Below the pieces are notes generated by a model. That model made no database searches. It saw nothing but the letters and a program-made list of their open reading frames with translations, and was not told where the DNA came from. From IMG/VR virus record IMGVR_UViG_3300014204_000110: a stretch of 64,000 bases of DNA; one strand, 5' to 3'. The translations under genes and the position numbers were made by a program. Below are positions 19,995-43,500 of the stretch, one piece after another. This stretch comes from a virus. Taxonomy: Duplodnaviria; Caudoviricetes. Positions within the stretch are counted from its first letter, which is position 1; the number at the start of each line of letters is the position of its first letter.

Positions 19995-20474
19995 ATGAGT
20001 TCAAAAACTTGTAAAACATGTAATATTGAAAAAGATGAATCGGAATATTATAAATATAAAAATACATATTGTCGAAGAGATCATTCGTATAAAGAATGTA
20101 AAAAATGTTATAATCTTAGAGTTAAAAAATATTGTGAAAATAATAAAGAAAAAAAAAGAAAATCCAGTAAAATATGGTGGGAAAATAATAAAACTAGTAG
20201 AAATATAATACGTAAAGAACAACGTTTAAAACGAAATTATGATTTATCTTTAATTGATAGAGAAAATATTTTAAAAGAACAAGATTATAAATGTAAAAGT
20301 TGTAATACTGATTTAAAAAATTTAATATCTTATCATATACATATTGATCATGATCATACTACAAATGTTATTCGTGGAATATTATGTAGAGGATGTAATA
20401 TTGCTTTAGGTTTATTAAATGATGACCCAGATAAAATATTAAAATTATATAATTATTTAAAACCCTTTAAATAA
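19995..20474 (+). CDS. Free-standing HNH endonuclease, endonuclease VII family
   Basis: CxxC motifs; QDYKCKSC...HIDHDH...IRGILCRGCNIALG. Confidence 0.88.
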   Translation: MSSKTCKTCNIEKDESEYYKYKNTYCRRDHSYKECKKCYNLRVKKYCENNKEKKRKSSKIWWENNKTSRNIIRKEQRLKRNYDLSLIDRENILKEQDYKCKSCNTDLKNLISYHIHIDHDHTTNVIRGILCRGCNIALGLLNDDPDKILKLYNYLKPFK

Positions 20475-26873: not shown

Positions 26874-27410
26874 ATGACCCGACAAACTAAACTTTATAAA
26901 ATATCAGCAATGGTAAATAAAACTAAACAAAATATATTTTATAGAGATCTTACTGCTAATGAATATACTTTTATAAATAATATTAAAAATTTAGCAATAA
27001 AAGAAGATATCGCAGGTAGAACAGCTATATATAATTACGATCCAGATAAACTTTCATTAGGTGTAAGAATTCAAATTGGCCGTGACGCGTTATCTAGAGT
27101 AGATAATATTTTAAGTTCAAAACAAATATTTGAAATAACTATTTCTGAGTTTAGAGCAAGTATTAAATCTGATGATTTTATGTTACTTATTAAACAAATA
27201 TTATCATGTCTTCCTGGACAATCATATATCGATCTACTTAATTTAACTCTTAAAGATCTTATTGAATTGGCTTGTTTATGTGAACTTTTAATTGGAAAAC
27301 CATTATTTGATAGTGGTAAAAAAGGTGGACTTGTTAATCCTAAAAATTTAGAAGATAATGGTAAAAGTCTTCAAGATAAAATGAATAAATTACATGGAGT
27401 TACAAAATAA
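26874..27410 (+). CDS. Putative second tail assembly chaperone
   Basis: IFYRDLTANEY resembles the motif in the upstream gene; position. Confidence 0.5.
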   Translation: MTRQTKLYKISAMVNKTKQNIFYRDLTANEYTFINNIKNLAIKEDIAGRTAIYNYDPDKLSLGVRIQIGRDALSRVDNILSSKQIFEITISEFRASIKSDDFMLLIKQILSCLPGQSYIDLLNLTLKDLIELACLCELLIGKPLFDSGKKGGLVNPKNLEDNGKSLQDKMNKLHGVTK

Positions 27411-30400: not shown

Positions 30401-33400
30401 GGAGCAGGAGCAGATGCTATAGCGCGAGTTAGAATGGGTGTGTCTAGAGTATCAGACCTAACTGGTATAACGGCTACAATGAAGTATCTGCATGGTTTAA
30501 TGCCACTTTCTGAAAGTAGTATTCCTGGAGCTGTTGTTGGTGGAATATTTAGTAAAATAATGCAAACTGGACCTCTTGGAACTGCTAAAAATATATTTGC
30601 TGGAGCAATTATAAATAGAATAGTTTCTCCATATCTTCCAGATATGACAAAGACTCATAAAGAACTTACTGAGATATATTCTGGAAGACAACAAGTTCCA
30701 ATCATGAAAGCACCTACATGGTTACTTGGAAGTACTCCTTGGGAAGGAAGTAAAGTAGCTGGATATTCTCCTAACTGGTATGTAAGAGCTAAAAGTAGAT
30801 GGAAAGAATCTGATAATATGTATGGTTCTGCTTTTAGAAAACTTATACATGAACCATTACCTTTTCTTGGTTTTAATGTAGGAGACATTGTAGATCCATA
30901 TTTTCTCGAACGTAAATCGTATTGGTCAAGACCTTTCCCTGTAACAGGAAAACCATTTGAAGAAGTTCCAGTAATTGGAGGAATACTTGCAAATACAATT
31001 GGTAGAATAATTAAACCACAGAAGACAATGCATCAAGAGTTTTTACAAGAAAGATTTGCTTCTGCAGATGATTCTAATAATCCATATCCTTTTTCTATAC
31101 GTCCACCAACAGTAAGTGAAGGAATGGAAATAATGAAAACTTCTTCTAAAATGAAAAGTCTTGGAGGAAGAACATTTAATGGTGGTAACGTTAAACAAGT
31201 AAATCCAGATTGGGGTGAAACTGCAGCAGAAGATTTCTTATATGACATACAAAATTTTACTGGTCTTAAAGGATTTTTATCAAGTACAATCACAGATAGA
31301 ATCTTTGGTAAAAATACAGTAACTCCAACCTTTGAAACTGCAGGAAGAATAGCATCATTTAGCAGAAGTTATAGTGATCTTAATCTTGGTGGTATCGGTA
31401 TGATAAGTGAAGGTATGAGAAGAATTATAGAGAAACCTAAGTATAGACAATATGGAATTAATCCAATTCCAAATATGATGCCTGAATATTTAGGACCAGA
31501 GTTTATAACTGGTGATCCTTGGAGTTCCATACAAAGGGGAGAATTAAGACTTCCTGGAGAAAGTTATTTGCGGACACATCCAGATGTAAAGAGATCTATG
31601 CCTGCAAGATCATCTTTAATCGGAGGTAATATAGAACATATTGTTCAATATTTTACAGGTTTACTTCCACCATTACTCAAAGAAGAATATGACATCATGG
31701 AAACTGGAACAGAGTTTCATAGATCTATTCAGGATTCTCTTGCTGCTGAAGGACTATTGATACAAGCCGAATCATTGGTTCATGATGTTAAAAATGATAT
31801 TACTGGTCACGTTGATGCTATTATACGTGATGGTACTGGTGGTGGTGGTCGAAGAGCACTTGAAATAAAGACAATAAGTAATGAAGGTTTTGAAAAATTA
31901 AATGCTCCAAAAGGATCCCATCTAACTCAATTAAATTTTTACTTACGTCAACTTAAGATGAGAAAAGGAACATTGTTATATGTTAATAGAGATAATCCAT
32001 CACAAGTTCGAACATTTGAAATAAATTATAGTCAGAGTAGATGGGAAAAGGATCTTGCTAAATTAAAAAAAGCAAGAAGTGTTGCTGCTACAATGATGCA
32101 AGAAGGAGTTGGTGACGATTTTGGATATAGTTATTCGTGGCTTGATAGATTAAATATTTTATCAGATGTCAGTCCAATGAGTCCTGAATACAAAGAAGCT
32201 AAAATGATCGTAGACAGTCAGATCAAATTTGGAATGCTGAATGATAAGGAGCTATTAAAATATAAAAACTCTATTAAAATGAGACAAGCTAGGATACGTA
32301 AATACGAGTTATACGAAAAGCGATTTGCTGGAAAATTATTTAATCCTGATACAGAACTTAATATACAATCTATTAATGATGATATAAAAGCAGGAGCAAA
32401 TTATAGTTTACCTGAACGAAGTTTAGGATGGTTATACGAGCAATTTACAAATACTAATACTTTCTTAGTTAATAAATTTTGGGCAGTTAAAGATCCATTA
32501 GAACATTATAAGATGTCTAGGATATATGGAAAAGAATATAAACCTTGGGATGAACCAATACGTAGTTGGGCTAAACCAATGTTAAATTCATTGTTAGAAA
32601 AAACAAATCCAGTTGAAGGAACTATATCAGCAGGTAGTCTAGGATATTTATTTGGTGGAGGTCCTTTAGGAGGACTAATTGGTAGTGCGGTTGGTTTTGG
32701 ATATGGAAGTATAAATGGTATTTATAGAACACTTACTAATTCAGCTTTTATTCCTGAAGATGTTAAAACTAGACGAGAAATAAATTCTTATTTTGATGCA
32801 GCTAAGTATGAACGAAATAATATGATGGCTAGTTTATCATCTGGACTTACTCAACAGGAATATTTAAAAGAACAGAATGCTACACTTACTGCTTTTAATA
32901 ATAACAAAGGAAGTGTTGTTGCTAATCTTTTCAGAGGTGCTTCTGTTTTTGAAAAACCATATATAGAATCATTTTTAAATACTAAAGATAAAAAAGAAAG
33001 AGAGAATATACTTAAATATATTCCAGAAGATCTTGCTATGGCTTTAAAGAAACAATGGAGTCAAAATGATAGTAAAGAAGCAACTGGAGAATATGTTAAA
33101 TTAAGTAGTGCTGAACTTACAAAAGGTGCTCCTAAATATAAGTTTAGTAAGCAAATAATGGATCCAGCAGTTAATCTAGAAGATATTGAATTGAAAACTA
33201 TTAATCAAGAAGGACTTGATAAGTTTGAATTTGGTCTTGGATGGAATGAACAGATGCTTAGAATTCAACAGTCTAATCGATCTATTCAGGCCGAAACTAT
33301 AAGTAGATTAAATCCAGAGACACAATCATTAGGACCAAATATAAGTTCAGCAAATATACGTGGACTTATAAATAACTATTTTAGTAGTAATAATATAAAA

Positions 33401-33535
33401 TCTTCTACTAATGTATATATAGATAATACTCAAGAAGAATATAATCAACTTGAAGTTGTTATACGACGAGATAGATCTAGAACAGTTATTAATGCTTTAA
33501 ATAATCGTAAAAAATATGGATTAAGTAATGAATAA
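27410..33535 (+). CDS. Tape-measure-like or ejected virion protein with a PD-(D/E)XK nuclease domain
   Basis: 2041 aa; follows the chaperones; Gly-rich hydrophobic segments; GTEFH...GHVDAII...LEIKT...QLNFY motifs. Confidence 0.7.
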   Translation: MDYSPDDQNRYYDPQQNTKSDVDVGTLARQIVLPMVADVAGLLVAKYVTHTSISKLKSWRTSQNSFKNSLSNSIFSKTESFNKKIQPFKKSITENPLYKSVVKSGQEREALLSNLKGTSRYNTTRVSSVFKNPKTLAYSAAKVWKENVWSGMAAQYAIDHMLGVNEQWGLEKKSVYDIPGQAVNFGKWLGASTVFGLGFGGAGPLVKAMGSTGLKATQKVFGGEFGKKVLDTLSMRPLGVPKDYKYTSSSDISVFNKHVISDLRSNEQQKFAANAVRNKLSFGSNVGEAFRNVQNSLYVASDTFKGGWQSSGVNVGSRTRQALGVLETSLKNVREILIKPREKLTSTISHPGIQAINFLTEISKNKNTKIDTGSTEFANFMTQVSKDSYKETAVGRIFKFLKPLQNKDVVSNEWIKNTYGNLSDRFADTSTAKTLMRNVLNMRVGQNIYRDWRGSNIKGAGVDLGAFDPILSMRRTASKILNHQFNLPLTKLGMSLGDITGINTYLSEAPSFEFFKQPPEFKYKNHGSIGDLADNKSNAMFAYNNGKWAVINNNTVRIVDDSGHRLRYASKSGKDKAFELKTIGVNRMRDALNKEDPLTAALRYNQIKERVDYQDAPTNPFLHYLDRRNIGLPTKLKEYAQIITDKFQDKEVYKQYVSDFFTAPSILNARALPIIGNIYERTSQTFSRVLQNKNAHQIIAHYVHNKELKDDFAGIAYSDQKMIDILDRSEFKADRHIFDNDFHRSVKELRAYPQKAKDHASTKRLGPFSDMTSSDVVRKDLIEDIFNRDFIGAPAGHAHPLIGAADDLFTARIINDKERKYLKLHAKLSVFKDEGLIKGSDHHADYWPSIVKNINDRSKKNNWDILNEITDFISNEDIRRPSIRLSQNQIIPKDWGNLSDAKLFPKDINPYTSIPDNGIVIFKDIITKSTDSVTTMMGEWLPYKKRYLQHHGFTGSAKYIGGILGTSAAVFGAYRITDTLVATNPLFDDTLLGDGLTGAGADAIARVRMGVSRVSDLTGITATMKYLHGLMPLSESSIPGAVVGGIFSKIMQTGPLGTAKNIFAGAIINRIVSPYLPDMTKTHKELTEIYSGRQQVPIMKAPTWLLGSTPWEGSKVAGYSPNWYVRAKSRWKESDNMYGSAFRKLIHEPLPFLGFNVGDIVDPYFLERKSYWSRPFPVTGKPFEEVPVIGGILANTIGRIIKPQKTMHQEFLQERFASADDSNNPYPFSIRPPTVSEGMEIMKTSSKMKSLGGRTFNGGNVKQVNPDWGETAAEDFLYDIQNFTGLKGFLSSTITDRIFGKNTVTPTFETAGRIASFSRSYSDLNLGGIGMISEGMRRIIEKPKYRQYGINPIPNMMPEYLGPEFITGDPWSSIQRGELRLPGESYLRTHPDVKRSMPARSSLIGGNIEHIVQYFTGLLPPLLKEEYDIMETGTEFHRSIQDSLAAEGLLIQAESLVHDVKNDITGHVDAIIRDGTGGGGRRALEIKTISNEGFEKLNAPKGSHLTQLNFYLRQLKMRKGTLLYVNRDNPSQVRTFEINYSQSRWEKDLAKLKKARSVAATMMQEGVGDDFGYSYSWLDRLNILSDVSPMSPEYKEAKMIVDSQIKFGMLNDKELLKYKNSIKMRQARIRKYELYEKRFAGKLFNPDTELNIQSINDDIKAGANYSLPERSLGWLYEQFTNTNTFLVNKFWAVKDPLEHYKMSRIYGKEYKPWDEPIRSWAKPMLNSLLEKTNPVEGTISAGSLGYLFGGGPLGGLIGSAVGFGYGSINGIYRTLTNSAFIPEDVKTRREINSYFDAAKYERNNMMASLSSGLTQQEYLKEQNATLTAFNNNKGSVVANLFRGASVFEKPYIESFLNTKDKKERENILKYIPEDLAMALKKQWSQNDSKEATGEYVKLSSAELTKGAPKYKFSKQIMDPAVNLEDIELKTINQEGLDKFEFGLGWNEQMLRIQQSNRSIQAETISRLNPETQSLGPNISSANIRGLINNYFSSNNIKSSTNVYIDNTQEEYNQLEVVIRRDRSRTVINALNNRKKYGLSNE

Positions 33536-36500
33536 ATTTGATGAACGTAATGAAAATATAAAAGATCAAAATTGGTTTATAAGAACAACTTTTAAAATTG
33601 GTGTTTTATCTGCTGCAACTTTTGGTATTTATAAAATGCGTGGTCCAGCAAAAAGTCTTGCTGATAAATATTTAAATCAATATAAAGATAAAATTATAGA
33701 ACGAGAATCATGGAAAAAACTTGATTCAAAAACTAGAATGCTTGGAAGTACTGCAAGTATTAATCAACCTAATTTTGGATTAGATCTAGATGATCAAGAA
33801 TTTGATAGAATGTTTCAAAAGAAAGACGATTTTGTTTTTACATTAGAAACTGATCCTCTTAAAGTTTTAGATTTAGAAACTCAAGAAAATTCTCTTATAA
33901 AAACTATTGAACTTGATATTGGTAATGATGCAGTTATAGATAAACATGATGTTTTATTTAAACTAAGAAAAGATGCACTTTATGAACGTATAAATACTTC
34001 ATCTCTTTTAAGAATGGAAGATAGAGCAGCTTTAGAAAGTATTAATAATATTAAAGATTCTGATAAACTTGAAGCACTTCATAATTTCTATATGTCTAAT
34101 GATCTTAATTATTATAGAAAATATAAGCAAAAATTAACTGCAGTTACTCATGATTATAGAACTTCAATGAATAAAATGTATGTTAAATTTGGACATAATC
34201 CAAAGATAACTTCTGACATTGCAAAAGATTTTATTTATGGAACTGCTAAATTTGATGCAAGTCCTGAAACTGCTGTAAAATTAAGATATCAAGCTAAAGA
34301 ACTTAAAAAGGATATGTATCAACCTATTAATGTTTTTGAATTACTTAAACAAAAGAAACCTATTACGTCTGGATCATTTGTTAAAAAAGATTTAACAGAT
34401 CAATTTGAAAAAGATATAGCTAGTTTTGATTATAGTAATTTACTTAAAGATCTTGGTGAAAAAATCGAAGAATTACAAGATAAAGAACTTAGACCAAAAT
34501 CTTATGTTAAAAATGTGTCATATACAATAGCAAGAGAAAATTCTTTTGGATCTGAAGAACGTTGGTTTTTAAATATAGCATTACAGCATGAAACTAGAGG
34601 AACTGCTGAAATTAGAGTTCCAGTATCTCAACATGGTCTTATTCCTGGATCTAAAATGAGTGTAACTGAACAACTTGATGGTTTTTATTTAAAACCAGAA
34701 AAACATTTTGTTCCTAATTTATTACATACAAATCTTTCAACTGATTATCAAAATAAAACTCAAATGATTCTTAAGAAAGTTTTTAATATTCTAGATGGTA
34801 GTCAAATGGAACGAGATTTTGCAGATAATCCACAATCATTTGCAAGAAGTGTTCAAAATATTATAACTAATTTACTTGATGATCCAATTGCTGGACGATC
34901 TGGTAGAGATTTTATAAAAATGAATAGATTAGTTTTTCCTAATCCATCTCCAAAAATAAGTAAATATTATCGAGAAAGATTAGGTGATATAGTTGCAACT
35001 GGACGATCTATGAAATCGTTTTCTCAAAATTTAAAAAATAAATCAAATATGATGATCATTGATCTTGACTTTGAAACGATATCTAGAGATACTCCTGGTC
35101 TTAATTGGATGGCAAAAGATGATTTTACTGAAATTACCGAAGTCGGTTTTGTTGTACAAGATTATGAAAATGGTAAACTTATTAAAACTGATATGGATAA
35201 AATACATAGTAATCATGCAGTACATGCTATTGATGGATGGAGAGAAAAAAAGAATGCTATTAATTGGATACGAAGTCAAACTCATAACTCTGAAAAAATG
35301 ACCGATGTAGAACTTATAGACTCTTGGAAATCTCAAGTTAATAATGATGCTGAATGGTCAAGACTTAGACATGGTAAAACTTTTCATAGTAATCATGATA
35401 TAGCACAACATGCTGCAAATAAATTATTAATTTCTATTAAAAAAGCTGTAAGTGAAAGAAAGAAAGTTTTTATAAATACTAAAAACTCTAGATTTGACTT
35501 AGAATTTCTTAAAGCATACGCTGGACATGAATGGAGTTATTTAAAAAAATATGTTCAGTTTATTGATTCTCAAAGTATTGCTCATCTTTATAACATAAAA
35601 GGTCAACAAGGATCCATGAGTCTTAGTAACATTATGATAAGAATGATGAAAGGATATGGTGCTACAAGAGATGATATACTTCCAGTAGCTAAAGGTAGTC
35701 TAACTCATGCTATTCGATGGTTAAAAAGTAAAGATAGAAAATTATGTAGTATCGATGATGCTATTATAGATGAAATGGAAAAAAGTAAAGTTCTTGGTCT
35801 TGCACATAGTTCTACTGTTGATGCCCTAGCTTCTAACTTTATACTTTTTAAATCTCATGAAGACTTATTTGGTCATCCAGAAATATATAAAGAATTTTCT
35901 GAGATAGAAAAGTTTTTAGCAAGATGTAAAAATTCTTCATCATTAAGCGAATCTATGGAAGAAGCTAAATTAAGAGAAGTATATTCTACTGTTAATGGAA
36001 TGACTATAAGCAGTCATATGTTAGCTCAAGGACAAGCGGCTAAAAGAATGATGTCTAGAATAAGTAATCATCATATAAGTTCGTATACTGATAGTCCATT
36101 ATCTAAACAATGGGATCAATTTCATGCTGGTGTTAGAGTATCACCATCAGATCGTTTTTTAAAGGAAATGAATAATAGCAAAGATAAACAATTATATAAC
36201 AAATATTTTAAAAGTGTATTTCTATCTCGTGGAGAGATAGGAATGTATAAAGGTATTTCTGCAGATGCGATGACTAATAATTTTCAACATCATGTCATTC
36301 TTGATACAATACATGTATTTAATCCTTATATGGGTGAAGGTGGATATAATGCTGTAAGTACTGAAGCCTTTAAAAATTATAAAATACATTTTACTGAACG
36401 AGTTGATTTATCTCAAGTTCAATCTGGAGGAGAAGATCCAATACTTAATAAACGTCTTATAGATATGCAAAATAAAATATATAAAGAGGCACGAGCACTT

Positions 36501-39500
36501 GCAAACGGAGATCATGGTAAAATAAATAAACATCATCTAGAAATGGCTGCAAGAAAAGTAGTTGAAACTATGGATAGTCTAGGTGAAACAATAATTAATC
36601 CAGTTGATAGATCAAATACTTTAAGTCATGGTGATGCTAATATTAAAACGTCTAAAAAAGAATTTGGTGGTAAAATACTTAATGTGGTTACTAATCTAGA
36701 AGCTGGTAAAATCAGTATGCACGCTGATATTGAATATTTAGCTAATGGAGAATCTTTTGAAGATATGCCATTTAGATTAAGAAATGAAAGTACTAAATCT
36801 ATGGGTGTTGTAGATAATTATAATTCATTACTTATTGCTAATGGTGCTAATCATTTATCAGATGCTGGATTTTTAACAAAAGGTTATGTTCATGCTCAAA
36901 AATCTATGCTTACTTTTAAAATTATGAGTAATTTATTTGATACTTATAATGATCCAAATGCTTCTGAAGTTGAAAAACGATATGCTGAAAAAACATTACA
37001 AAGATTAGCTAAAGATGTAAAAGGTCAACCATTTGATATTAATAATCGTCAGATAGTACATGATCCTGATGCTAATCCTGAATTTAGTAATATTCTTGAT
37101 CCAATGGAAATAGAACAAAGTAAAAAATATTATGGTAATGTTGATATGAGTTTTTCTAAACTTGATCAATATATGGTTGATGCTAGAATTGTATGGACTG
37201 AAGAAAAGTTTAATCAATGGCTTGGTTTATGGGGTGGAGAAAAGAATCTTAGAAAGTTTATTAATCAATCAATATCCAGTCATACTCATTATATAGAAAA
37301 ACAACTTAAATCTACTGGTAAAACTTTAGGACATCTAGAACAATCAGCTATACAGGATTATTCAACTTATTTAAATGAATGGTTTTTACCATCTATGGAA
37401 AAAGTTAAATCAGGTAAAGCTGCTATGTATTGGGAACCATTTAAAAAATATAAAGATGGTTCTACTATGACATTTGGATATAGAGGACCTTCTAGATATT
37501 CTCTTTATGGAATTGCTTCTGGAAATAAACCAGTTGCTAAAGAAATTAAAATGAGATCTAGTATATTACATTTTATAACTCAACCATTTAGTCATGTTAC
37601 TCCTTCTACTGTTAAAAGTATTAAAGCAAGTAAAAGAGCTTATGGTGGAAATAAATTTTCATCAGCTTATGCAACACTACGAAGATACAAAGATACTATT
37701 TGTTCAAATGCTATGGCTAAAGGACACGATTTAAATCTTGATGATATTAATAGATTACTTGATAATAAAGGCGACATTGATGTTAAAAAATTAGCAAGAT
37801 GGTCCTTTAGTGATGAAGAAAAATCTAAAATAATAAGTAATGTTATAGACGATCTTCAAGAAGCTACAAAAGATGGTAGTAAACTTCAAGGAGCTATTGA
37901 AACTATTCTTAATGAAATGCAACAAGATAAATTTGAAAAAGCTTTTGAAAAAGGAAGTAATTTAATTACAACTGTTGCTGCTGAAAAGAATTGGGAAAAT
38001 TTAGCTAAAGAAAAAGGTGGAGTTTTTACATATTCAAAACGTCCTGAACTTGGTGGAGGTTTTACTTTTCATATAAATGAACTTCTAGATAGAACTCCTG
38101 GTTTCACTGATGATGAAGTAACTAAAGCAAAAAATCTTAGTTTAGATTTCTTTGAACATATATATAAAAATTCTCCTGATGGATTTGTAAAAGATTTTGA
38201 TAGAGAAAAAGGACAAGTTACTTTAAAATATCTTGCAATACATGCTGATACTTCTAAAGCTAATGTAATGAATTATATAAATAAGAGTGCTCAAGAAAAA
38301 GGATATGGATATCTATCTACTCCTGCTAAATATCAAAGACATTTGTTTAATGCAATGAAAGAATATGAACTTGAAGTAAAAAAGTTATCATCTGGAAGTA
38401 ATCAAATAAAAGTTCAAGAAGAATTTCTTAAAAAACAATATCTTTTATATACATTAAAAGGATTTTTAATGGATTCATCTTCAATCTATGCCCGTTCTGC
38501 TCAAGAATATGTACCAGTAGGACTTCAATCTCATATTATTGGAACATCAGCTGTAATTGAAAAAGCTAGAGAGATTATGTATCAAGGTGGAATAGAAAAA
38601 GCTTATGGAGTTAAAGGAAGTTCTAAACATGATCAATTAATTAAACGATTAGCTGAAGAAAGTGATTTTACTGATGTTATTGTTTCAGAAGATGTATTTA
38701 AAAAAATGCAATATCCTGATGGAACTAATATATATGAAAAATTAAAAAAGACAAAAACAAAAGAAGAAGTTAAAAGGGTGATGTCTGGATTAGAATCACA
38801 TTTTATGTATTCTAATAGTAATCCAAATATACAAGCTGCATCAGATGCAATACAATCACATAGATTAACAATAGTTCCTAAAGATGTAAGAAAATATTTA
38901 GCAGTTAGTAATAGTTTAATTCATGCTAACTCTATGCAAGTTAAATTAGCTGGTCGTGATAATGATGGAGATAGAATGGGTTTTGTTGTACATGCTTATG
39001 AAACTGCAGATGATTTAGTTAATCTACAAAAAGAACATTCTGAATATAAACGTAAAGTACTTGAATCTTATATTGGACGGCCACGAACTGCTGAAGAAGT
39101 AAAAGCTGGAGATGCTAGTAAAATTATTACATTTGGAGAATATGGTAAAAAAGGTTGGGTTAGAGATTTTTCTAATGGAAATGTAAATTATACCTATTAT
39201 GATGATGCTGGTAGAGAAGTTCATACTTCTGTTCCTATAAATAGTTCTAAAGCTGAAGAACTTTTAGGAGATCCATTCTTTTCAAATTATGCTAAAAATG
39301 CTTATACGTTAGAAATGAATACTCCAGCAAGGGCTACTACTCAAGAAGCATATAAACAGTTAGATCGAGTATGTGCAACTGTTGTATCAAAAAATAATAT
39401 AGGTTTAGCAACTAATATAGCTTATAAAATGACTCGACATCTTATGCAAGTTGGACTTACTGGTAAAAATCCTGATGCTGCAAAATTACTTTATGGTAAC

Positions 39501-40373
39501 TTATCTACTGGAGATGCTGGAATTGCTCAATTATTTATTAGTTTAGCTAAACATGAAACAGATATAAAGGGGTTAGAACAAGTATCTAAAGTTTATGCTA
39601 ATCCTTTAACCAGAGATGCTGAGACTCATAATGGAGCTAAACAGTTCTTTGAAAGACTTATGCCTAAAGGAATGGAAGGTCGTGGAGAAGAAATTTATAG
39701 AATATTTACTGATTCTATGAAAGCGTATAATGAATATACTCCAAGAGATTCTATTAGTTCTGAGATTATAAAATCAATTGATGACATTGATGGTCTTAAA
39801 GATGGAACTAATATTATGAACGCAATAATGTCTACTGCTCATGTTGATTTTTTAAATGATTATGGTGATCAAATAAGAGAACAATATAGATCTCCTACTC
39901 AAGAAATGTTTGATGTTCTTGGTAAGAAATTTAAATTTGATCCTAGTAAGATTAATTTTAAAAAAGGTGGTAAAATAGGAGCAGTTGGAGCAGCAGTTTA
40001 TTTAGCATCTAATTTCTTTAGACCTCATCAATTAAGTAATTCATTAAATCCATTTGATGCTTTTACAGATCTAGGATCAGATATTGATAGTTCTCAAAAT
40101 AGAAAACTATTTACGGATTTAGAACTTGAAAGATCAATACCATTGGATATGGTAAATGCTTCCTTTTCTAAAAAAGCATATATTAAACTTAATAAAAGAA
40201 ATAATAATCAGGATAAGTCTATGATTATTAATGACATGCTAAAACAAGGTTATAGTAGTACTAATCCTTTATTGCATGAATGGAGAACTTCACCAAGCTA
40301 TGACTATGCAGACTATACTACCAACGTAGGCTCCTTTGGAACAACTTCATTAGATAGAAAATCTAGATATTAA
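33528..40373 (+). CDS. Putative virion single-subunit RNA polymerase with a DEDDh exonuclease domain
   Basis: 2281 aa; GRDNDGD catalytic-type motif; NIGLATN; QLFISLAKH; DLDFET...FDLEFL...AHSSTVD. Confidence 0.7.
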   Translation: MNKFDERNENIKDQNWFIRTTFKIGVLSAATFGIYKMRGPAKSLADKYLNQYKDKIIERESWKKLDSKTRMLGSTASINQPNFGLDLDDQEFDRMFQKKDDFVFTLETDPLKVLDLETQENSLIKTIELDIGNDAVIDKHDVLFKLRKDALYERINTSSLLRMEDRAALESINNIKDSDKLEALHNFYMSNDLNYYRKYKQKLTAVTHDYRTSMNKMYVKFGHNPKITSDIAKDFIYGTAKFDASPETAVKLRYQAKELKKDMYQPINVFELLKQKKPITSGSFVKKDLTDQFEKDIASFDYSNLLKDLGEKIEELQDKELRPKSYVKNVSYTIARENSFGSEERWFLNIALQHETRGTAEIRVPVSQHGLIPGSKMSVTEQLDGFYLKPEKHFVPNLLHTNLSTDYQNKTQMILKKVFNILDGSQMERDFADNPQSFARSVQNIITNLLDDPIAGRSGRDFIKMNRLVFPNPSPKISKYYRERLGDIVATGRSMKSFSQNLKNKSNMMIIDLDFETISRDTPGLNWMAKDDFTEITEVGFVVQDYENGKLIKTDMDKIHSNHAVHAIDGWREKKNAINWIRSQTHNSEKMTDVELIDSWKSQVNNDAEWSRLRHGKTFHSNHDIAQHAANKLLISIKKAVSERKKVFINTKNSRFDLEFLKAYAGHEWSYLKKYVQFIDSQSIAHLYNIKGQQGSMSLSNIMIRMMKGYGATRDDILPVAKGSLTHAIRWLKSKDRKLCSIDDAIIDEMEKSKVLGLAHSSTVDALASNFILFKSHEDLFGHPEIYKEFSEIEKFLARCKNSSSLSESMEEAKLREVYSTVNGMTISSHMLAQGQAAKRMMSRISNHHISSYTDSPLSKQWDQFHAGVRVSPSDRFLKEMNNSKDKQLYNKYFKSVFLSRGEIGMYKGISADAMTNNFQHHVILDTIHVFNPYMGEGGYNAVSTEAFKNYKIHFTERVDLSQVQSGGEDPILNKRLIDMQNKIYKEARALANGDHGKINKHHLEMAARKVVETMDSLGETIINPVDRSNTLSHGDANIKTSKKEFGGKILNVVTNLEAGKISMHADIEYLANGESFEDMPFRLRNESTKSMGVVDNYNSLLIANGANHLSDAGFLTKGYVHAQKSMLTFKIMSNLFDTYNDPNASEVEKRYAEKTLQRLAKDVKGQPFDINNRQIVHDPDANPEFSNILDPMEIEQSKKYYGNVDMSFSKLDQYMVDARIVWTEEKFNQWLGLWGGEKNLRKFINQSISSHTHYIEKQLKSTGKTLGHLEQSAIQDYSTYLNEWFLPSMEKVKSGKAAMYWEPFKKYKDGSTMTFGYRGPSRYSLYGIASGNKPVAKEIKMRSSILHFITQPFSHVTPSTVKSIKASKRAYGGNKFSSAYATLRRYKDTICSNAMAKGHDLNLDDINRLLDNKGDIDVKKLARWSFSDEEKSKIISNVIDDLQEATKDGSKLQGAIETILNEMQQDKFEKAFEKGSNLITTVAAEKNWENLAKEKGGVFTYSKRPELGGGFTFHINELLDRTPGFTDDEVTKAKNLSLDFFEHIYKNSPDGFVKDFDREKGQVTLKYLAIHADTSKANVMNYINKSAQEKGYGYLSTPAKYQRHLFNAMKEYELEVKKLSSGSNQIKVQEEFLKKQYLLYTLKGFLMDSSSIYARSAQEYVPVGLQSHIIGTSAVIEKAREIMYQGGIEKAYGVKGSSKHDQLIKRLAEESDFTDVIVSEDVFKKMQYPDGTNIYEKLKKTKTKEEVKRVMSGLESHFMYSNSNPNIQAASDAIQSHRLTIVPKDVRKYLAVSNSLIHANSMQVKLAGRDNDGDRMGFVVHAYETADDLVNLQKEHSEYKRKVLESYIGRPRTAEEVKAGDASKIITFGEYGKKGWVRDFSNGNVNYTYYDDAGREVHTSVPINSSKAEELLGDPFFSNYAKNAYTLEMNTPARATTQEAYKQLDRVCATVVSKNNIGLATNIAYKMTRHLMQVGLTGKNPDAAKLLYGNLSTGDAGIAQLFISLAKHETDIKGLEQVSKVYANPLTRDAETHNGAKQFFERLMPKGMEGRGEEIYRIFTDSMKAYNEYTPRDSISSEIIKSIDDIDGLKDGTNIMNAIMSTAHVDFLNDYGDQIREQYRSPTQEMFDVLGKKFKFDPSKINFKKGGKIGAVGAAVYLASNFFRPHQLSNSLNPFDAFTDLGSDIDSSQNRKLFTDLELERSIPLDMVNASFSKKAYIKLNKRNNNQDKSMIINDMLKQGYSSTNPLLHEWRTSPSYDYADYTTNVGSFGTTSLDRKSRY

Positions 40374-40561
40374 TGGGTATCAAGACAAAATTAGTTATTG
40401 ATCTTCCAGATGATGTTGATTATACTCAACACGTTAATAATATTAAAAATCAAATATCTAGAATTAATGGATTAGAAACTATTGTAAGTTTACAGACGAT
40501 AGATGATCCAATCAGCCTTAGTCCAACCAATATAAGAAAAGTAAGTGAAGCTAATGACTAA
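40373..40561 (+). CDS. Small hypothetical protein
   Basis: 62-aa ORF, TAATG-coupled. Confidence 0.5.
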   Translation: MGIKTKLVIDLPDDVDYTQHVNNIKNQISRINGLETIVSLQTIDDPISLSPTNIRKVSEAND

Positions 40562-43500
40562 TATTGATCCAAATACAATTGGAAATGCTTTATATTTTAT
40601 TCTTACTAAAAAAGAACCTTATAGTAAATATATATCTATTTATTCTTCAGATCAATCTCTTGGTAAATCTACTGTTCCTAATTTAATTATAGAAGTTTAT
40701 AATAAATATTTTAAGCTTCAAGTTAATCTTAATACTCAATCTAAAAGTAATATATTTATTTTACAAGGTGGAGATGTTATTAAAACTGGTAGTGGTAATA
40801 CTTATTTAATAACTCATTCTGAAGGAACAGTTGGAACTTGGCCAAAATTAACAGATATAGATAATCTAGAAATTAATTCTACTATTAAACAGTATGAAGT
40901 TATAAGACCTAATTTTGATAATATTAAAGAAACATTACTTGAAGATCTTCAAAATATTGGAAAAGAAATATTATCCACCGATAGTGAAACTAACCGATTA
41001 CTTGAGCAAATTCCTGAAACATTAAATAATTCCAAAGATATTAAAAGTGCAGATGGTGTAGACTTTTATTCATTAGGTGAAGGTGCTTTACAAATTGGTG
41101 ATTTAATTTTTGTTGTTGATCCTACACAACTTGCTTTTAATTCTCAAAACGGATATCAATATTTTCCTACTTTAAGAACTCAAGGTAATCCAAAAATACC
41201 AACTACTCAACAAGTTAAAAATTTATCTATTAATTTGATATTTCCAAATGAAGATAGTATAAATTATCAACTTTTAAATTTATATGCAATGTTTAAAAGA
41301 ACTCCATTTGTTAATATAAGAAATAAAGATATTTGTGAATTTTTTAAAGATATTTGTTTTATGGAAGAATGGCTTCCAGTTGCTCTAGAAAGTATTCAAA
41401 TACAATCAGTTCCTGGTTTTCCAAATACATTACAAGCATCAATAACAATACTTCCTTTTGATTATAGAATGATGAGTGATGGATTTCAAGCACTTCTTTC
41501 AATGGAAGATGTAGAACGTCAACAAACTATTTTATATCGAAATGAAGAATATGATAGATTAATTAGAAAAGCAGAGTCTAAACTTGATGAACAATCTGTA
41601 TCAGAAGAACGATTTCTAGATGTACTTATTCATGATATAGATAAATCTCCTGATTTTAGAAACAGTTTGCCATTTAGAGCATTTTATCAATCTTTGATAG
41701 CTGATCGTAAATTTATAATGAATAGTTCTGGTAAAATAGTTTCTACCTCTAAAAAAGGTAGTTATGATATTGCTTGGTTTAGACCAACTAAGACTGAAAA
41801 TTTACTTAATGAATATAAAGCTTCTTCTAATAATAAATCAATTACATTATCCTATAATTATATTTCTAAAGATTTTCAAACATTTTCTAAAATAGTTTCT
41901 AATGAACGCACTGATAAACAAGTACGACTACTTAAACAACTTACAGATTTTTATACTTCTATTAGAACTAAAGATGATCTTATAAAAGAAATGGTTACTT
42001 TTTTTACAAGAAAAGAAGATTTTTATAATATAACTGAAGGAAAATTTCAAGAACTTTCTAATAATATAATTCCTAATTTAGTTACTCGATTTGGTATTAC
42101 AATGGAAGGTCAAAGTGAAGTAATTATTAAAAATTGGTTTGATCTTCTTACCAAAGGTTTTGCTATAAAACAAGGTTGGGTACAAACATTTGAATCAATA
42201 CAAAGTATAAATAATTTCTTTGGTGGTAATTTTTCTGTTGATAATACTGATGTTTTAGGATTTTTAAATGGTGTTACTTATACTGATAAAGATACCTTTG
42301 GAGTTGGAACATTTCAATGGGGTATTAAGAAAATATGGGATTGGATTGATACTGGAACTGATAAACAAAAAGAATTGAAAAAGAAAAACTTTTCAGCATT
42401 TCTAGGAGAATTAAGAGTTGCTATTACTAAAGAAATTACTTCTGAAACTCTTGTTGTAAATCCTACTGCTGATGGTGAAATGTTTAGTATTGCTAGAATA
42501 CCAATTGTATCAGAAGATATTGTTATAGATAATGTTAGTGATATAATTGTTGGTTGGTCAATTGTGTTTTCTAATAAATTTATTCCAATGACATTACAAG
42601 CATATAAATATCCATATTATCAACATATTGGTTCTGAAGATCCAGTAATGTCTTTAAATATAACATCAATATATAATAAAAATAAAGATTTAAAATCACA
42701 ACTTTCTATATTATCTGAACGTCTTCATGAATCAGCAAAAGTTGTTACTCTTAATGCTCCAGAGTTGATAACATATCTAGATCCTAGAATAACTATTAAT
42801 GCTGAAGCAAATAATTTATTTAATTCTTTTGGAATTAAAAAAGTTGTATTTGATTCTTTTAATATTGTTAATATTGATGGGCAACCAAATAGTTGGAATA
42901 TTGCAGTTAATTTTACTCAATCGAATTTTACAATATCTGATTATCATGGTGTATCTCATGTTCCTTCTAATGAAATTGCTATTCTTGAACTTGCTAAAAT
43001 AGTTTCAAGTATAGAAAAAATTAATGATAATTATGTTGTAATGGATTATAAAACTAGAAGTGGTAATTTATTAAATCTCAATGATATTCTTAAAATAAGA
43101 TTTCTAGCTTGGTCAGTAAGTAATATTGATCAAAAATATAATATCATTGAATATATTAAACAAGTTAAAAGTGGAAGACAAAGTAAAAATACTGGAACTA
43201 TTGGAAATGAATTAGCTGATAAATATTTACAAGAATTTTATAAATCTATAGGTAGTCTAGAAAGTTTTTCATTATCACAACCAAATACTACAGAAAATTT
43301 TAATGTACGAGAAGTTAATATAACTAAAACTAAAATTTTACAAGATTTAATATCTAATACGCAATATAAAAATATTTTAGATTTTATAAATATTAAAACT
43401 GAAGAATTATTTAAATTAAAATCTGAACTTATACGATCTTTGATATTTAATGATAAATCTTGGTTTAGAAATTATTTAGATAGATATGATGCTAGGTATA

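What the first reader, a model, noticed from the sequence alone, without database searches (positions are those of the whole stretch)
33528..40373. Putative virion-packaged single-subunit RNA polymerase in the tail module of a myovirus
Seen in sequence: LIHANSMQVKLAGRDNDGDRMGFVV (DxDGD at 38958-38972), preceded by a NSNPNI segment at the position of the beta-prime R.P motif and followed by NNIGLATN (about 39395) and AQLFISLAKH (about 39530). Established: these match the layout of double-psi-barrel single-chain polymerases (cellular RdRP, YonO, crAss-like virion RNAP of similar length). Inference: its place between the tape-measure-like and hub genes suggests an injected enzyme for host-independent early transcription.
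Basis: partly seen in the sequence, partly recalled or inferred. Interest (0 to 1): 0.82.

Follow-up and report, generated by a model that had tools for sequence, protein, structure and literature searches.

The report
Tail-module exonuclease-fused two-barrel RNA polymerase
A 2281-residue protein encoded among the tail genes of an uncultured giant contractile-tailed phage joins a DnaQ-type exonuclease to a single-chain version of the cellular RNA polymerase core. The phage probably carries it in the particle to start its own transcription, a strategy known from a few other phages but here in a protein family that no annotation library recognises.

Summary
ORF 33528-40373 (+) is one open 2281-aa frame, and DNDGD lies at 38958-38972 (aa 1811-1815). 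In 46 full-length relatives (15-49% identity), the three Asp and the Pro of the upstream R-x-P are invariant.

No Pfam, PHROG or PDB sequence search recognises the protein. Two AlphaFold models (pLDDT 77 and 84) do match RNA polymerases:
- Foldseek gives more than 400 PDB hits at E<=1e-3, and the 50 listed are all beta-prime/Rpb1 chains.
- VIA-align ranks the single-chain two-barrel enzymes first: QDE-1 (Z 11.9), P74 gp62 (11.7) and P23-45 gp96 (8.9).
- ESM-Atlas shape hits are fused clusters that carry both Rpb2_6 and Rpb1_2.

The beta-prime-like barrel, bridge helix and trigger-loop region are clear. The second barrel is supported only indirectly.

An invariant DEDDh exonuclease motif set (aa 514-765) is fused upstream in every family member.

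The gene is the middle of three giant genes between the tail chaperones and the baseplate. This synteny is shared with Bacillus phage 0305phi8-36, whose middle giant gp146 is a virion protein, and with Acinetobacter phage ME3, whose middle giant carries R-E-P...DHDQD.

Packaging into the virion and early transcription are inferred, not shown.

This scan has already reported the same kind of protein on other genomes. I found no paper describing it. Verdict: a new variant of a known kind.

The parts
33528..40373 (+). Whole gene: 2281-aa exonuclease plus two-barrel RNA-polymerase-like giant protein (P0001)
   Evidence: Single open frame. It overlaps the upstream giant gene by 8 nt. The family has 61 representatives, about 45 of them full length at 2200-2490 aa.
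33576..33638 (+). N-terminal moderately hydrophobic segment (aa 17-37)
   Evidence: Read from the sequence. It stays below a Kyte-Doolittle mean of 1.3 in this member, but it reaches membrane-helix-like values in relatives P0026, P0055 and ME3_36.
35040..35837 (+). DEDDh (DnaQ/RNase T-like) 3'-5' exonuclease motif set, aa about 505-770: ExoI D514-x-E516, ExoII N653-x3-F-D657, D680, ExoIII H760-x4-D765
   Evidence: D514, E516, D680, H760 and D765 are invariant and D657 is kept in 98% of 46 relatives. Pfam support is weak: RNase_H_2 in 3 of 46 members (best E 1.5e-4) and RNase_T in 1. In the ESM feature search, 57 of 100 hits fall in the RNase_T family set, score 0.93.
36666..37562 (+). Beta-subunit-like region with the candidate second barrel (DPBB-B), aa about 1047-1345; conserved basic residues K1090, K1118, K1125, K1341, R1343
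   Evidence: Beta-strand clusters appear at model-2 residues 118-166, 180-182, 237-249 and 374-410. Including aa 930-1150 raises the Z scores and extends the alignments into DPBB-B of QDE-1, gp62 and gp96. An Atlas match to fused Rpb2_6 + Rpb1_2 clusters covers model residues 148-978.
37698..38504 (+). Clamp-like region aligned to the N-terminal part of beta-prime/Rpb1 (aa about 1391-1659)
   Evidence: VIA alignments to vaccinia Rpo147, Pol I A190, Pol II Rpb1 and M. tuberculosis beta-prime start at model-2 residue about 460 and at chain residue about 11-20.
38517..38993 (+). Beta-prime-like double-psi beta-barrel (DPBB-A), aa 1664-1822, carrying S-N-P (the family's R-x-P) at 1764-1766 and DNDGD
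   Evidence: Isolated DPBB domains superpose on model-2 residues 735-893: 7dww_A Z 6.8, 7dvc_A 6.2, 7dbo_B 6.2. P1766 is invariant.
38958..38972 (+). DNDGD metal-binding loop (D1811, D1813, D1815)
   Evidence: All three Asp are invariant in 46 relatives. A family profile aligns this loop to NADFDGD of bacterial beta-prime, but not significantly (E 1.5-2).
39339..39449 (+). Candidate bridge helix, aa 1938-1974, containing the S-K-x-x-I-G-x-x-T-N motif
   Evidence: A 37-residue helix in model 2, H1009-1045. K1955, I1958, T1962 and N1963 are each kept in 91%. Its offset from the Asp loop (+127 to +163) is similar to that in phi14:2 gp66 (+168 to +198; bioRxiv 10.1101/2020.03.07.982082).
39495..39554 (+). 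Candidate trigger-loop region, aa 1990-2009 (G-x-L-x-x-G...Q-x6-K-H)
   Evidence: Q2001 is kept in 98%, K2008 in 98% and H2009 in 87%. Short helices follow the bridge helix in model 2. The QDE-1 alignment runs to chain residue 1149.
39963..40370 (+). C-terminal module, aa 2146-2281: a Gly/Ala-rich hydrophobic segment followed by the best-conserved part of the family
   Evidence: Mean column conservation is 0.47-0.62 against about 0.3 elsewhere. The region is disordered in model 1, pLDDT below 50. ME3_36 has a TM-like segment near its C-terminus (aa 1480-1500); a similar-looking Gly/Ala-rich stretch in 0305phi8-36 gp146 does not reach the 1.3 threshold.
27410..33535 (+). Upstream giant gene (2041 aa) in tape-measure position, with a Cas4/PD-(D/E)xK nuclease domain at aa 1428-1558 and an N-terminal TM segment
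   Evidence: phrog_1706 at E 3e-19. TM-like segment at aa 24-50. A giant of 2050-2400 aa holds the same position in relatives' contigs.
40373..40561 (+). Small 62-aa ORF overlapping the stop codon of the polymerase gene by 1 nt
   Evidence: Found. An ORF of 58-64 aa sits at the same place in three relatives' contigs.
40545..47546 (+). Downstream giant gene (2333 aa), hub/lysin-like
   Evidence: phrog_20474 'endolysin' at E 9e-43, aa 1939-2146. It is the positional equivalent of 0305phi8-36 gp147 and ME3_37, the latter annotated 'baseplate hub protein'.

Best explanation
The gene encodes a single polypeptide made of three parts:
- a DEDDh 3'-5' exonuclease (aa about 505-770);
- a complete, very diverged, single-chain two-barrel RNA polymerase core (aa about 1047-2010), in the order beta-like barrel, clamp-like region, beta-prime-like barrel with the DNDGD Mg-binding loop, bridge helix, trigger-loop region;
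- hydrophobic or conserved segments at both ends.

It is co-transcribed with two other giant genes between the tail-assembly chaperones and the baseplate of a 0305phi8-36-like jumbo myovirus.

The most likely working is as follows. The protein is built into the particle with the tail and ejection proteins. After sheath contraction it is delivered with the DNA. It then transcribes the first-entering phage genes without the host RNA polymerase.

The fused exonuclease has two candidate roles. It may trim 3' ends for the polymerase (backtracked or misincorporated RNA, or the template end), or it may attack host nucleic acid on entry.

Shown here: the fold, the motif conservation, the fusion and the gene context. 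Inferred: packaging, ejection, template, activity and the role of the exonuclease.
For: Sequence and conservation:
- The frame is intact and all three Asp plus P1766 are invariant in 46 relatives down to about 15% identity.

Structure predictions:
- The AF2 models are confident: pLDDT 76.7 / pTM 0.71 and pLDDT 83.9 / pTM 0.81.
- Foldseek against PDB gives 447 and 418 hits at E<=1e-3. The 50 listed for each model are all beta-prime/Rpb1 chains, best E about 2e-6, probability 1.0.
- VIA-align over 48,161 chains puts RNA polymerases in the top 17 rows: QDE-1 Z 11.9 (299 residues), P74 gp62 Z 11.7 (307), ZmRDR2 9.4, P23-45 gp96 8.9 (255), AR9 and phiKZ nvRNAP about 9, Pol I/II/III, vaccinia and M. 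tuberculosis beta-prime 8-9.
- The barrel with DNDGD matches isolated DPBB domains.
- ESM-Atlas shape matches are fused clusters with PF00562 and PF00623. The best is a phage cluster at TM 0.60 by the match, 518 residues aligned.
- BFVD matches include segments of crAss-like virion RNAPs, a siphovirus 'minor tail protein', and proteins of Acinetobacter phage ME3 and Microcystis phage MaMV-DC.

Gene context:
- The gene order chaperone-like ORFs, giant, this gene, about 60-aa ORF, giant is kept in three distant relatives' contigs.
- 0305phi8-36 has the same three-giant layout (without the small ORF), and gp145 and gp146 there were found in virions by mass spectrometry.
- ME3 also has it, and its middle giant ME3_36 carries R-E-P, then 41 residues, then DHDQD.

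Precedent:
- P23-45 gp96 is a tape-measure-fused two-barrel virion RNAP with proven activity (PMC10770324).
- phi14:2 gp66 is a proven virion two-barrel RNAP.
Against: - There is no proteomic or biochemical datum for any member of this family.
- 0305phi8-36 gp146, the only syntenic protein with virion evidence, has no DxDxD and no detectable homology to this family.
- This member has Ser where 89% of relatives have the Arg of R-x-P. In bacterial beta-prime that Arg contacts the substrate ribose (my recollection, not checked here).
- No sequence method links the protein to any RNAP family at a significant level.
- A folded core of about 130 kDa cannot pass through a tail tube without unfolding, so the route of delivery is unexplained.
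- No second (non-virion) polymerase and no repeated promoter-like motif were found on the two phage contigs. The genome may be incomplete.
Confidence: 0.6

Rival explanations
1. It is a real two-barrel polymerase but is not packaged. It is made late together with the tail genes, or merely sits in that operon, and acts inside the cell as a middle/late or accessory transcriptase, as YonO does for SPbeta.
For: Fold and motif evidence are the same as for the main reading. The related phage 0305phi8-36 has its YonO-like RNAP (gp99) outside the structural module. No virion data exist for this family.
Against: The gene is tightly embedded in the tail operon (8-nt and 1-nt overlaps with its neighbours) between chaperones and hub, and this position is conserved across relatives at 15-30% identity. 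It has hydrophobic termini like ejection and tape-measure proteins. The positional equivalents in 0305phi8-36 are virion proteins. Late expression fits a packaged enzyme better than one needed inside the cell.
Confidence: 0.15
2. The two-barrel core does not work as a transcriptase. With the in-cis 3'-5' exonuclease it acts on DNA: as a proofreading DNA polymerase in the manner of archaeal PolD, as a primase-like enzyme, or as a DNA-end processing machine delivered with the genome.
For: A DEDDh exonuclease fused to a polymerase is the hallmark of proofreading DNA polymerases. PolD is a two-barrel DNA polymerase (PMC7281927, listed; PMC10770324). The Arg that in beta-prime reads the ribose is not conserved in this member. 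The neighbouring giant carries a Cas4-like DNA nuclease.
Against: All the best structural matches are RNA polymerases, and a bridge helix plus trigger-loop region typical of RNAPs follows the barrel. PolD chains do not appear among the 50 rows shown; this is not an exclusion. A virion-delivered replicative polymerase has no precedent known to me.
Confidence: 0.12
3. The polymerase-like core is an inactive structural relic inside a tail-lumen or ejection protein whose real job is mechanical (tail length, channel formation).
For: The position is next to the tape-measure slot. The C-terminal 130 residues, not the active site, are the best-conserved part. The Arg of R-x-P is lost in this member. 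The equivalent 0305phi8-36 protein lacks the Asp triad altogether.
Against: The three Asp, P1766, Q2001 and K2008 are invariant or nearly so across 46 proteins that otherwise share about 20% identity. So are all five DEDDh catalytic residues. That pattern indicates selection on catalysis.
Confidence: 0.06

Closest known systems
Thermus phage P23-45 gp96 (PDB 8H2M/8H2N), the tape-measure-fused virion two-barrel RNAP (Chaban et al. 2024, PMC10770324)
   Same: Both are single-chain two-barrel RNAPs encoded in the tail module as part of a giant protein with membrane-like segments, and both have a DxDGD loop. The structural match is Z 8.9, 255 residues, rmsd 3.8 A, covering gp96 residues 502-1088, which includes its DPBB-B.
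   Different: - gp96 belongs to a siphovirus; this phage has a contractile tail.
- In gp96 the RNAP is N-terminal and clamp-less, and is followed by about 3800 residues of tape measure with a metallopeptidase. Here the core is C-terminal and has a clamp-like region aligned to beta-prime.
- Here the core is preceded by a DEDDh exonuclease.
- A separate 2041-aa gene occupies the tape-measure slot.
- No sequence similarity is detectable.
Neurospora QDE-1 / plant RDR2 (cellular RNA-dependent RNA polymerases) and P74-26 gp62 (orthologue of the P23-45 gp64 non-virion RNAP)
   Same: These are the best overall structural matches: QDE-1 Z 11.9, gp62 Z 11.7, ZmRDR2 Z 9.4. The order is the same: barrel B, connector/clamp, barrel A with DxDGD, bridge helix, trigger loop.
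   Different: About 10% sequence identity. Those enzymes are 600-1400 aa and have no exonuclease. The spacer between the two barrels here is much longer (about 300-600 residues against about 140 in QDE-1 and gp66), and it resembles the N-terminal clamp of beta-prime.
Cellulophaga phage phi14:2 gp66, the crAss-like virion RNAP (PDB 6VR4)
   Same: A giant protein (2180 aa) that is packaged in the virion and is a proven two-barrel RNAP, with the Asp loop about two-thirds of the way along the chain. BFVD matches to segments of several crAss-like orthologues are at E 5e-5 to 4e-2.
   Different: gp66 belongs to a short-tailed Crassvirales phage. Its loop is DFDID, it has a cleft-blocking domain, and it has no exonuclease. 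6VR4 is not among the 50 VIA rows shown.
Acinetobacter phage vB_AbaM_ME3 gene ME3_36 (AND75197.1, 1603 aa, 'hypothetical protein')
   Same: It is the same lineage (0305phi8-36-like jumbo myovirus) and the same slot between the gp145-like and hub-like giants. It has R-E-P, then 41 residues, then DHDQD, plus hydrophobic N- and C-terminal segments. The BFVD model of an uncharacterised ME3 protein, whose segment length fits ME3_36, matches at E 6.6e-5, TM 0.35 by the match.
   Different: It is 680 residues shorter, and I saw no DEDDh motif set. Sequence homology to this family is only marginal: a profile hit of 1.8 bits, placed on the Asp loop.
Bacillus phage 0305phi8-36 gp146 ('hypothetical tape measure protein', 2537 aa) and gp99 (YonO-like RNAP)
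   Same: gp146 holds the same gene position and is a virion protein by mass spectrometry. It contains DnaQ-like motifs (Y-L-D-I-E-T-T-G, H-L-A-R-A-D) and a similar C-terminal hydrophobic segment. gp99 has R-S-P...G-G-A-D-T-D-G-D, which resembles this family's consensus.
   Different: gp146 has no DxDxD and no detectable homology. gp99 is a separate 1218-aa gene at the genome end, outside the tail module. No gp99 homologue was found in this assembly by tblastn.

Membership tests
Two-barrel (double-psi beta-barrel) RNA polymerase superfamily | Beta-prime-type DPBB carrying an invariant DxDxD metal-binding loop | tested here: met
   D1811, D1813 and D1815 are invariant in 46 relatives. Model residues 735-893 superpose on isolated DPBB domains (Z 6.2-6.8, rmsd about 2.5 A) and on the beta-prime/Rpb1 active-site region.
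Two-barrel (double-psi beta-barrel) RNA polymerase superfamily | Second (beta-type) DPBB supplying basic residues, facing the Asp loop | tested here: inconclusive
   Support is indirect. Alignments to QDE-1, gp62 and gp96 extend into their DPBB-B once aa 930-1150 are modelled. Atlas matches are to fused PF00562 + PF00623 clusters. K1118 and K1125 are kept in 85-89%.
Two-barrel (double-psi beta-barrel) RNA polymerase superfamily | Bridge helix and trigger loop after the catalytic barrel | tested here: met
   A 37-residue helix at aa 1938-1974 and a conserved G...Q...KH segment at 1990-2009. The alignments to QDE-1 and beta-prime run through this region. The assignment rests on the model only.
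Two-barrel (double-psi beta-barrel) RNA polymerase superfamily | Significant sequence match to an RNAP family model (Pfam RNA_pol_Rpb1_2, Rpb2_6, RdRP) | tested here: not met
   There is no Pfam hit for this protein or for any of 38 relatives' core regions at E<=0.1. The PDB profile search gives only E 1.5-2 on NADFDGD.
Two-barrel (double-psi beta-barrel) RNA polymerase superfamily | Mg-dependent templated RNA synthesis | not testable with these tools
   Needs biochemistry.
Virion-packaged phage RNA polymerases (phi14:2 gp66, P23-45 gp96 type) | Protein present in the virion and ejected | not testable with these tools
   Only positional evidence is available: the syntenic gp145 and gp146 of 0305phi8-36 are virion proteins by MS.
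Virion-packaged phage RNA polymerases (phi14:2 gp66, P23-45 gp96 type) | Gene located in the structural (late) module | tested here: met
   The gene lies between the tail sheath/tube/chaperone genes and the baseplate genes on one strand with overlapping stops and starts. The position is conserved in relatives.
DEDDh (DnaQ / RNase T) 3'-5' exonucleases | ExoI DxE, ExoII Nx2-3(F/Y)D and ExoIII Hx4D motifs in order | tested here: met
   D514-x-E516, N653-x3-F656-D657 and H760-x4-D765 are invariant or 98% conserved in 46 relatives.
DEDDh (DnaQ / RNase T) 3'-5' exonucleases | Match to the family model or fold | tested here: inconclusive
   Pfam gives RNase_T in 1 of 46 members (E 0.022) and RNase_H_2 in 3 of 46 (best E 1.5e-4), all below curated thresholds. 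The PDB profile search gives no exonuclease hit. In the ESM feature search, 57 of 100 hits fall in the RNase_T family set, score 0.93. The domain was not folded, because both fold jobs went to the polymerase core.
Tail tape measure proteins | First large gene after the tail chaperone pair; long extended helical protein | tested here: not met
   The 2041-aa gene at 27410-33535 holds that slot. Residues 930-2100 of this protein are predicted to be globular, with pTM 0.81.
PolD-type two-barrel DNA polymerases | Structural match to DP2 better than to RNAPs | tested here: inconclusive
   No PolD chain appears among the 50 rows shown by VIA-align or Foldseek. Absence from the list does not exclude the family.

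The most novel reading that the evidence does not exclude
The exonuclease and the two-barrel polymerase work as one machine. On this reading the protein is an injected RNA polymerase with a dedicated in-cis 3'-5' exonuclease, for proofreading or backtrack rescue in place of the Gre/TFIIS-type cleavage used by all known two-barrel RNAPs. Alternatively it is a bacterial-virus counterpart of PolD, that is, a proofreading two-barrel DNA polymerase. In either case it is delivered through a contractile tail together with a Cas4-like nuclease giant and a lysin giant, as a three-protein takeover module.
Probability: 0.15. Interest if true: 0.88.

Novelty: new variant of a known kind. Interest (0 to 1): 0.68.

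Why it matters
Virion-delivered two-barrel RNA polymerases are so far documented experimentally only for crAss-like phages (gp66), for the Thermus siphovirus P23-45 (gp96), and in multisubunit form for phiKZ/AR9-like jumbo phages.

This protein stands for a sizeable, wholly unannotated family. It has 61 cluster representatives, about 45 of them full length. The family places such an enzyme in the tail operon of 0305phi8-36-like jumbo myoviruses and fuses it to an exonuclease. I found that architecture in no paper.

If the protein is active and injected, three things follow:
- Host-independent early transcription would extend to another large phage lineage.
- The cultured Acinetobacter phage ME3 would offer a tractable relative.
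- The role of a 3'-5' exonuclease beside an RNAP active site becomes an experimental question.

It also shows that 'hypothetical' or 'tape measure' giants in tail modules can hide catalytic cores that only structure prediction reveals.

Tried and rejected
Searches that found nothing:
- Pfam, PHROGs and PDB sequence searches of the whole protein gave nothing.
- tblastn against 50,697 phage records gave no match at E 1e-5.
- A profile of the polymerase half against PDB sequences gave only non-significant beta-prime hits, E 1.5-2.
- A profile of the exonuclease region against PDB sequences gave only unrelated weak hits.
- Pfam scans of 38 relatives' cores found no RNAP family.
- The ESM feature search of the beta-like region (aa 1035-1400) gave no usable hit.

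Tests against syntenic proteins:
- hhalign and hmmsearch of the family against 0305phi8-36 gp146 and the Moorella phage MTATph1 giants found no homology.
- hhalign against ME3_36 as a single sequence also failed. A direct hmmsearch placed a marginal hit on its Asp loop.

Search for a second polymerase:
- Pfam RNA_pol_Rpb1_2 and Rpb2_6 found only the host rpoB/rpoC on contig C19. The T7-type model found nothing, and its control rang nowhere.
- tblastn with 0305phi8-36 gp99 found nothing.
- A regex for R/K-x-P...DxDxD on the phage's two contigs gave only a chance-looking hit.

Search for a promoter-like motif:
- A count of repeated intergenic 12-mers on C3 and C121 found no genome-wide motif. 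It found only a local repeat cluster outside the window.

Technical failures:
- A full-length alignment of 46 proteins failed in the alignment tool and timed out once in mafft --auto. It was then done with FFT-NS-2.

Readings considered and rejected:
- I rejected the reading of this protein as the tape measure itself. Another gene holds that slot, and the modelled part is globular.

Full report
**1. What is in the sequence**

The stretch 33528-40373 is one uninterrupted + strand ORF of 2281 codons. It overlaps the preceding 2041-codon ORF by 8 nt. Its stop overlaps the start of a 62-codon ORF by 1 nt.

- DNDGD is aa 1811-1815 (nt 38958-38972).
- NSNPNI is aa 1762-1767.
- NNIGLATN is aa 1956-1963.
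- AQLFISLAKH is aa 2000-2009.

The window is AT-rich (about 28% G+C), with almost all genes on the + strand.

**2. Phage and gene context**

PHROG matches identify the structural genes:
- a terminase with an insert;
- a portal;
- a major head protein;
- a tail sheath at 17155-19908 (E 1e-39);
- a baseplate wedge protein at 48857-50110 (E 1e-31).

The phage therefore has a contractile tail.

The window lies on two contigs of a metagenome bin, C3 (92.9 kb) and C121 (135.7 kb). Both are about 27-29% G+C, against a bin median of 42.6%. The phage is therefore at least about 228 kb and was probably binned with an unrelated organism.

The sheath's nearest cultured relatives are Moorella phage MTATph1 and Bacillus phage 0305phi8-36.

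The gene is the middle of three giant genes placed between small chaperone-like ORFs and the baseplate genes:
- the upstream giant has 2041 aa and a Cas4/PD-(D/E)xK nuclease domain;
- this gene has 2281 aa;
- the downstream giant has 2333 aa and an endolysin-like segment.

The same order holds on the contigs of three distant family members. There it reads: an about 900-1000-aa protein (not matched to a window gene), 100 aa, 182 aa, giant, this gene, about 60 aa, giant.

The three-giant layout also holds in two cultured phages:
- In 0305phi8-36 the three giants are gp145, gp146 and gp147. The first two were identified in virions by mass spectrometry, and gp146 is annotated 'hypothetical tape measure protein'.
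- In Acinetobacter phage ME3 they are ME3_35, ME3_36 and ME3_37.

**3. The family**

An exhaustive HMMER search of 1.8 billion cluster representatives with aa 1150-2281 found 61 proteins. About 45 are full length at 2200-2490 aa; the rest are contig-end fragments. All come from metagenomes, and none carries a name or a Pfam domain.

I aligned 46 full-length members, which share 15-49% identity with this protein. Two clusters of invariant residues stand out.

(a) A DEDDh exonuclease motif set:
- D514 and E516;
- D657 (98%);
- D680;
- H760 and D765.

These correspond to ExoI DxE, ExoII N-x3-F-D and ExoIII H-x4-D.

(b) The polymerase motifs:
- P1766, D1811, D1813 and D1815, all 100%;
- R1764 in 89% (Ser in this protein);
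- K1955, I1958, T1962 and N1963, each 91%;
- Q2001 and K2008, each 98%;
- H2009, 87%.

Many relatives read G-x-D-F-D-G-D and M-T-R-H-P-N-x-Q. This is closer to the beta-prime N-A-D-F-D-G-D and N-R-A-P motifs than the window's own sequence is.

The fourth position of the loop is Gly in most members but varies in others (A, S, V, K, N, R, T). The defining signature is therefore DxDxD.

The best-conserved segment of all is the C-terminal 130 residues.

**4. Sequence methods do not recognise the protein**

Pfam, PHROGs and PDB searches with the single sequence returned nothing. A family profile against PDB sequences returned only non-significant hits (E 1.5-2). Almost all of them, however, were the NADFDGD segment of bacterial beta-prime or the cyanobacterial gamma subunit. 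No RNAP family was hit by any of 38 relatives' core regions.

**5. Structure prediction**

Two AlphaFold2 models were built on 44-sequence alignments:
- Model 1 covers aa 1150-2281, with pLDDT 76.7 and pTM 0.71.
- Model 2 covers aa 930-2100, with pLDDT 83.9 and pTM 0.81.

*Foldseek against PDB.* The two models gave 447 and 418 hits at E<=1e-3. All 50 rows listed for each model are largest subunits of multisubunit RNAPs: Rpb1, A190 and bacterial beta-prime. The best E is about 2e-6 at probability 1.0.

*VIA-align against 48,161 representative chains, model 2*:

| Match | Z | Detail |
|---|---|---|
| QDE-1 | 11.9 | 299 residues aligned, chain 693-1149 |
| P74 gp62 | 11.7 | 307 residues aligned |
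| ZmRDR2 | 9.4 | |
| Pol IV | 9.2 | |
| AR9 nvRNAP | 9.0 | |
| P23-45 gp96 | 8.9 | 255 residues aligned, chain 502-1088 |
| phiKZ nvRNAP | 8.8 | |
| Pol I/II/III, vaccinia, ASFV, M. tuberculosis beta-prime | 8-9 | |

The top 17 rows are all RNA polymerases. The next rows are isolated DPBB domains (Cdc48/VAT N domains and designed DPBBs). They superpose on model residues 735-893, which are aa 1664-1822, the barrel that carries S-N-P and DNDGD.

*Evidence for the second barrel.* With model 1, which starts at aa 1150, the same three single-chain enzymes scored lower and over shorter ranges:

| Enzyme | Z | Residues aligned | Chain range starts at |
|---|---|---|---|
| QDE-1 | 9.1 | 237 | 752 |
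| gp62 | 8.7 | 243 | 182 |
| gp96 | 7.2 | 190 | 603 |

The roughly 60 extra aligned residues gained by adding aa 930-1150 fall in QDE-1 693-751 and gp96 502-602. Those are the DPBB-B segments that precede the connector in these enzymes (connector positions).

The ESM-Atlas shape search points the same way. Its first row is a 1006-aa cluster in which every member carries both PF00562 (Rpb2_6) and PF00623 (Rpb1_2), with 572 residues aligned over model residues 56-1161. Its fourth row is a 692-aa phage cluster carrying PF00623 in all members and PF00562 in 78%. It has TM 0.60 by the match and 518 residues aligned over model residues 148-978.

*BFVD matches* include:
- segments of crAss-like virion RNAP orthologues;
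- giant-virus Rpb1 homologues;
- a siphovirus 'minor tail protein';
- uncharacterised proteins of Acinetobacter phage ME3 and Microcystis phage MaMV-DC.

**6. Domain map (model-based)**

| Residues | Assignment |
|---|---|
| aa 17-37 | Moderately hydrophobic segment |
| aa about 505-770 | DEDDh exonuclease |
| aa about 1047-1345 | Beta-like region with strand clusters and conserved K1090, K1118, K1125, K1341, R1343 (candidate DPBB-B) |
| aa about 1391-1659 | Region aligned to the N-terminal clamp of beta-prime |
| aa 1664-1822 | DPBB-A |
| aa 1938-1974 | 37-residue helix carrying S-K-x-x-I-G-x-x-T-N (candidate bridge helix) |
| aa 1990-2009 | Candidate trigger-loop region |
| aa 2146-2281 | Gly/Ala-rich hydrophobic stretch plus conserved tail, disordered in the model |

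I could not inspect the coordinates. The strand topology of the second barrel and its distance to the Asp loop are therefore not verified. I rate the second barrel as supported but not demonstrated.

**7. The exonuclease**

The motif set is canonical and invariant. Support from family models is weak:
- Pfam gives RNase_H_2 in 3 of 46 members (best E 1.5e-4) and RNase_T in 1.
- The PDB profile search gives no hit.
- A protein-language-model feature search puts 57 of 100 nearest named clusters in the RNase_T family set, score 0.93.

I did not fold this domain. The fusion is present in every full-length family member.

**8. Relatives in cultured phages**

ME3_36 (1603 aa, 'hypothetical protein') sits in the same slot in ME3. 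The evidence that it is a distant relative:
- It contains R-E-P, then 41 residues, then DHDQD. The P-to-D spacing in this protein is 45 residues.
- It has hydrophobic segments near both ends.
- Its length fits the two-segment BFVD entry that matched the model at E 6.6e-5.
- The family HMM places a marginal hit exactly on its Asp loop.

ME3_36 is thus a probable distant, exonuclease-less relative in a cultured host-phage pair.

By contrast, 0305phi8-36 gp146 and the MTATph1 giants have no DxDxD and no detectable homology. gp146 does show DnaQ-like motifs and a similar C-terminal hydrophobic stretch.

0305phi8-36 encodes a separate YonO-like RNAP, gp99, at its genome end (PMC7824862). The gp99 loop region (R-S-P...G-G-A-D-T-D-G-D) resembles this family's consensus.

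In the present assembly I found no gp99 homologue. Apart from the host rpoB/rpoC, I found no other RNAP.

**9. Mechanism**

Shown:
- a confidently predicted RNAP-like core with an intact, invariant catalytic triad;
- an invariant DEDDh motif set in cis;
- a fixed position in the tail operon.

Inferred:
- The protein is assembled into the particle with the neighbouring giants.
- It is ejected on contraction.
- It transcribes the leading part of the genome independently of the host enzyme, as shown experimentally for P23-45 gp96 and phi14:2 gp66.

The exonuclease may rescue or proofread the RNA 3' end, or it may act on host or phage nucleic acid at entry. I cannot distinguish these roles.

Points against the inferred mechanism:
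- no virion or activity data exist for the family;
- the Arg of R-x-P is lost in this member;
- it is unknown how so large a folded core would leave through a tail tube.

**10. Novelty**

The kind, a virion-associated single-chain two-barrel RNAP that can be encoded in the tail module, is known from P23-45 (PMC10770324) and from crAss-like phages.

Two features are undescribed in the papers I could search. One is its occurrence in contractile-tailed 0305phi8-36-like jumbo phages. The other is its fusion to a DEDDh exonuclease.

Earlier agents of this scan have reported the same or closely similar proteins on other genomes (e1-5377006, e1-1954232 and others). Those are unchecked AI notes and I did not count them as evidence.

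I class the finding as a new variant of a known kind.

Noticed in passing
window 27410-33535: The upstream 2041-aa giant in the tape-measure slot carries a Cas4/RecB-like PD-(D/E)xK nuclease domain (aa 1428-1558, phrog_1706 at E 3e-19) and an N-terminal TM-like segment. In one relative's contig the equivalent gene shows faint intein/LAGLIDADG Pfam hits.
   Followed up: partly
window 40373-40561: A 62-aa ORF overlaps the polymerase gene's stop by 1 nt and overlaps the GTG start called for the third giant. An ORF of 58-64 aa sits in the same place in three distant relatives, so it is probably a real small gene of this module.
   Followed up: partly
window 44704/44705 (contig junction C3 end / C121:146): In the held assembly the window spans two contigs, and the third giant ORF (40545-47546) crosses the junction. 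The 145-nt overlap between the contigs is only 141/145 identical to the window. The window's first 44704 bases are not letter-identical to C3. The window therefore comes from a slightly different assembly or strain mixture.
   Followed up: partly
window 1491-4835: The large terminase ORF is 1114 aa, with its terminase matches split (aa 131-215 and 674-1060) around an insert that weakly matches recombinase and primase PHROGs. This looks like an intein or another insertion.
   Followed up: no
window 19995-20474: A 159-aa ORF just after the sheath gene matches Endonuclease VII (PF02945, E 3e-18). It is probably a homing-type nuclease next to the intron-rich tail-tube gene that another agent of this scan reported.
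   Followed up: no
G000 contigs C154 (ORF from 16023, - strand, 6248 aa) and C174 (ORF from 59660, + strand, 3913 aa): Other low-GC contigs in the same bin encode giant ORFs with R-I-P...G-S-D-F-D-M-D and R-I-P-T-Q-G...G-S-D-Y-D-I-D signatures. These are candidate two-barrel polymerase giants of other phages binned together.
   Followed up: no
G000:C3:33500-34750 (about 13 kb upstream of the window): A non-coding region of about 1.3 kb lies at the switch between the - strand and + strand gene blocks. It holds four or more copies of AATAATCAGACATAAAT. It is a candidate origin or regulatory repeat cluster.
   Followed up: no
L010 (Moorella phage MTATph1) 30512-37868: In MTATph1 the middle-giant slot holds a 1309-aa ORF followed by a transposase gene and three small ORFs before the hub/endolysin giant. 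This suggests an insertion-sequence disruption of the middle giant.
   Followed up: no
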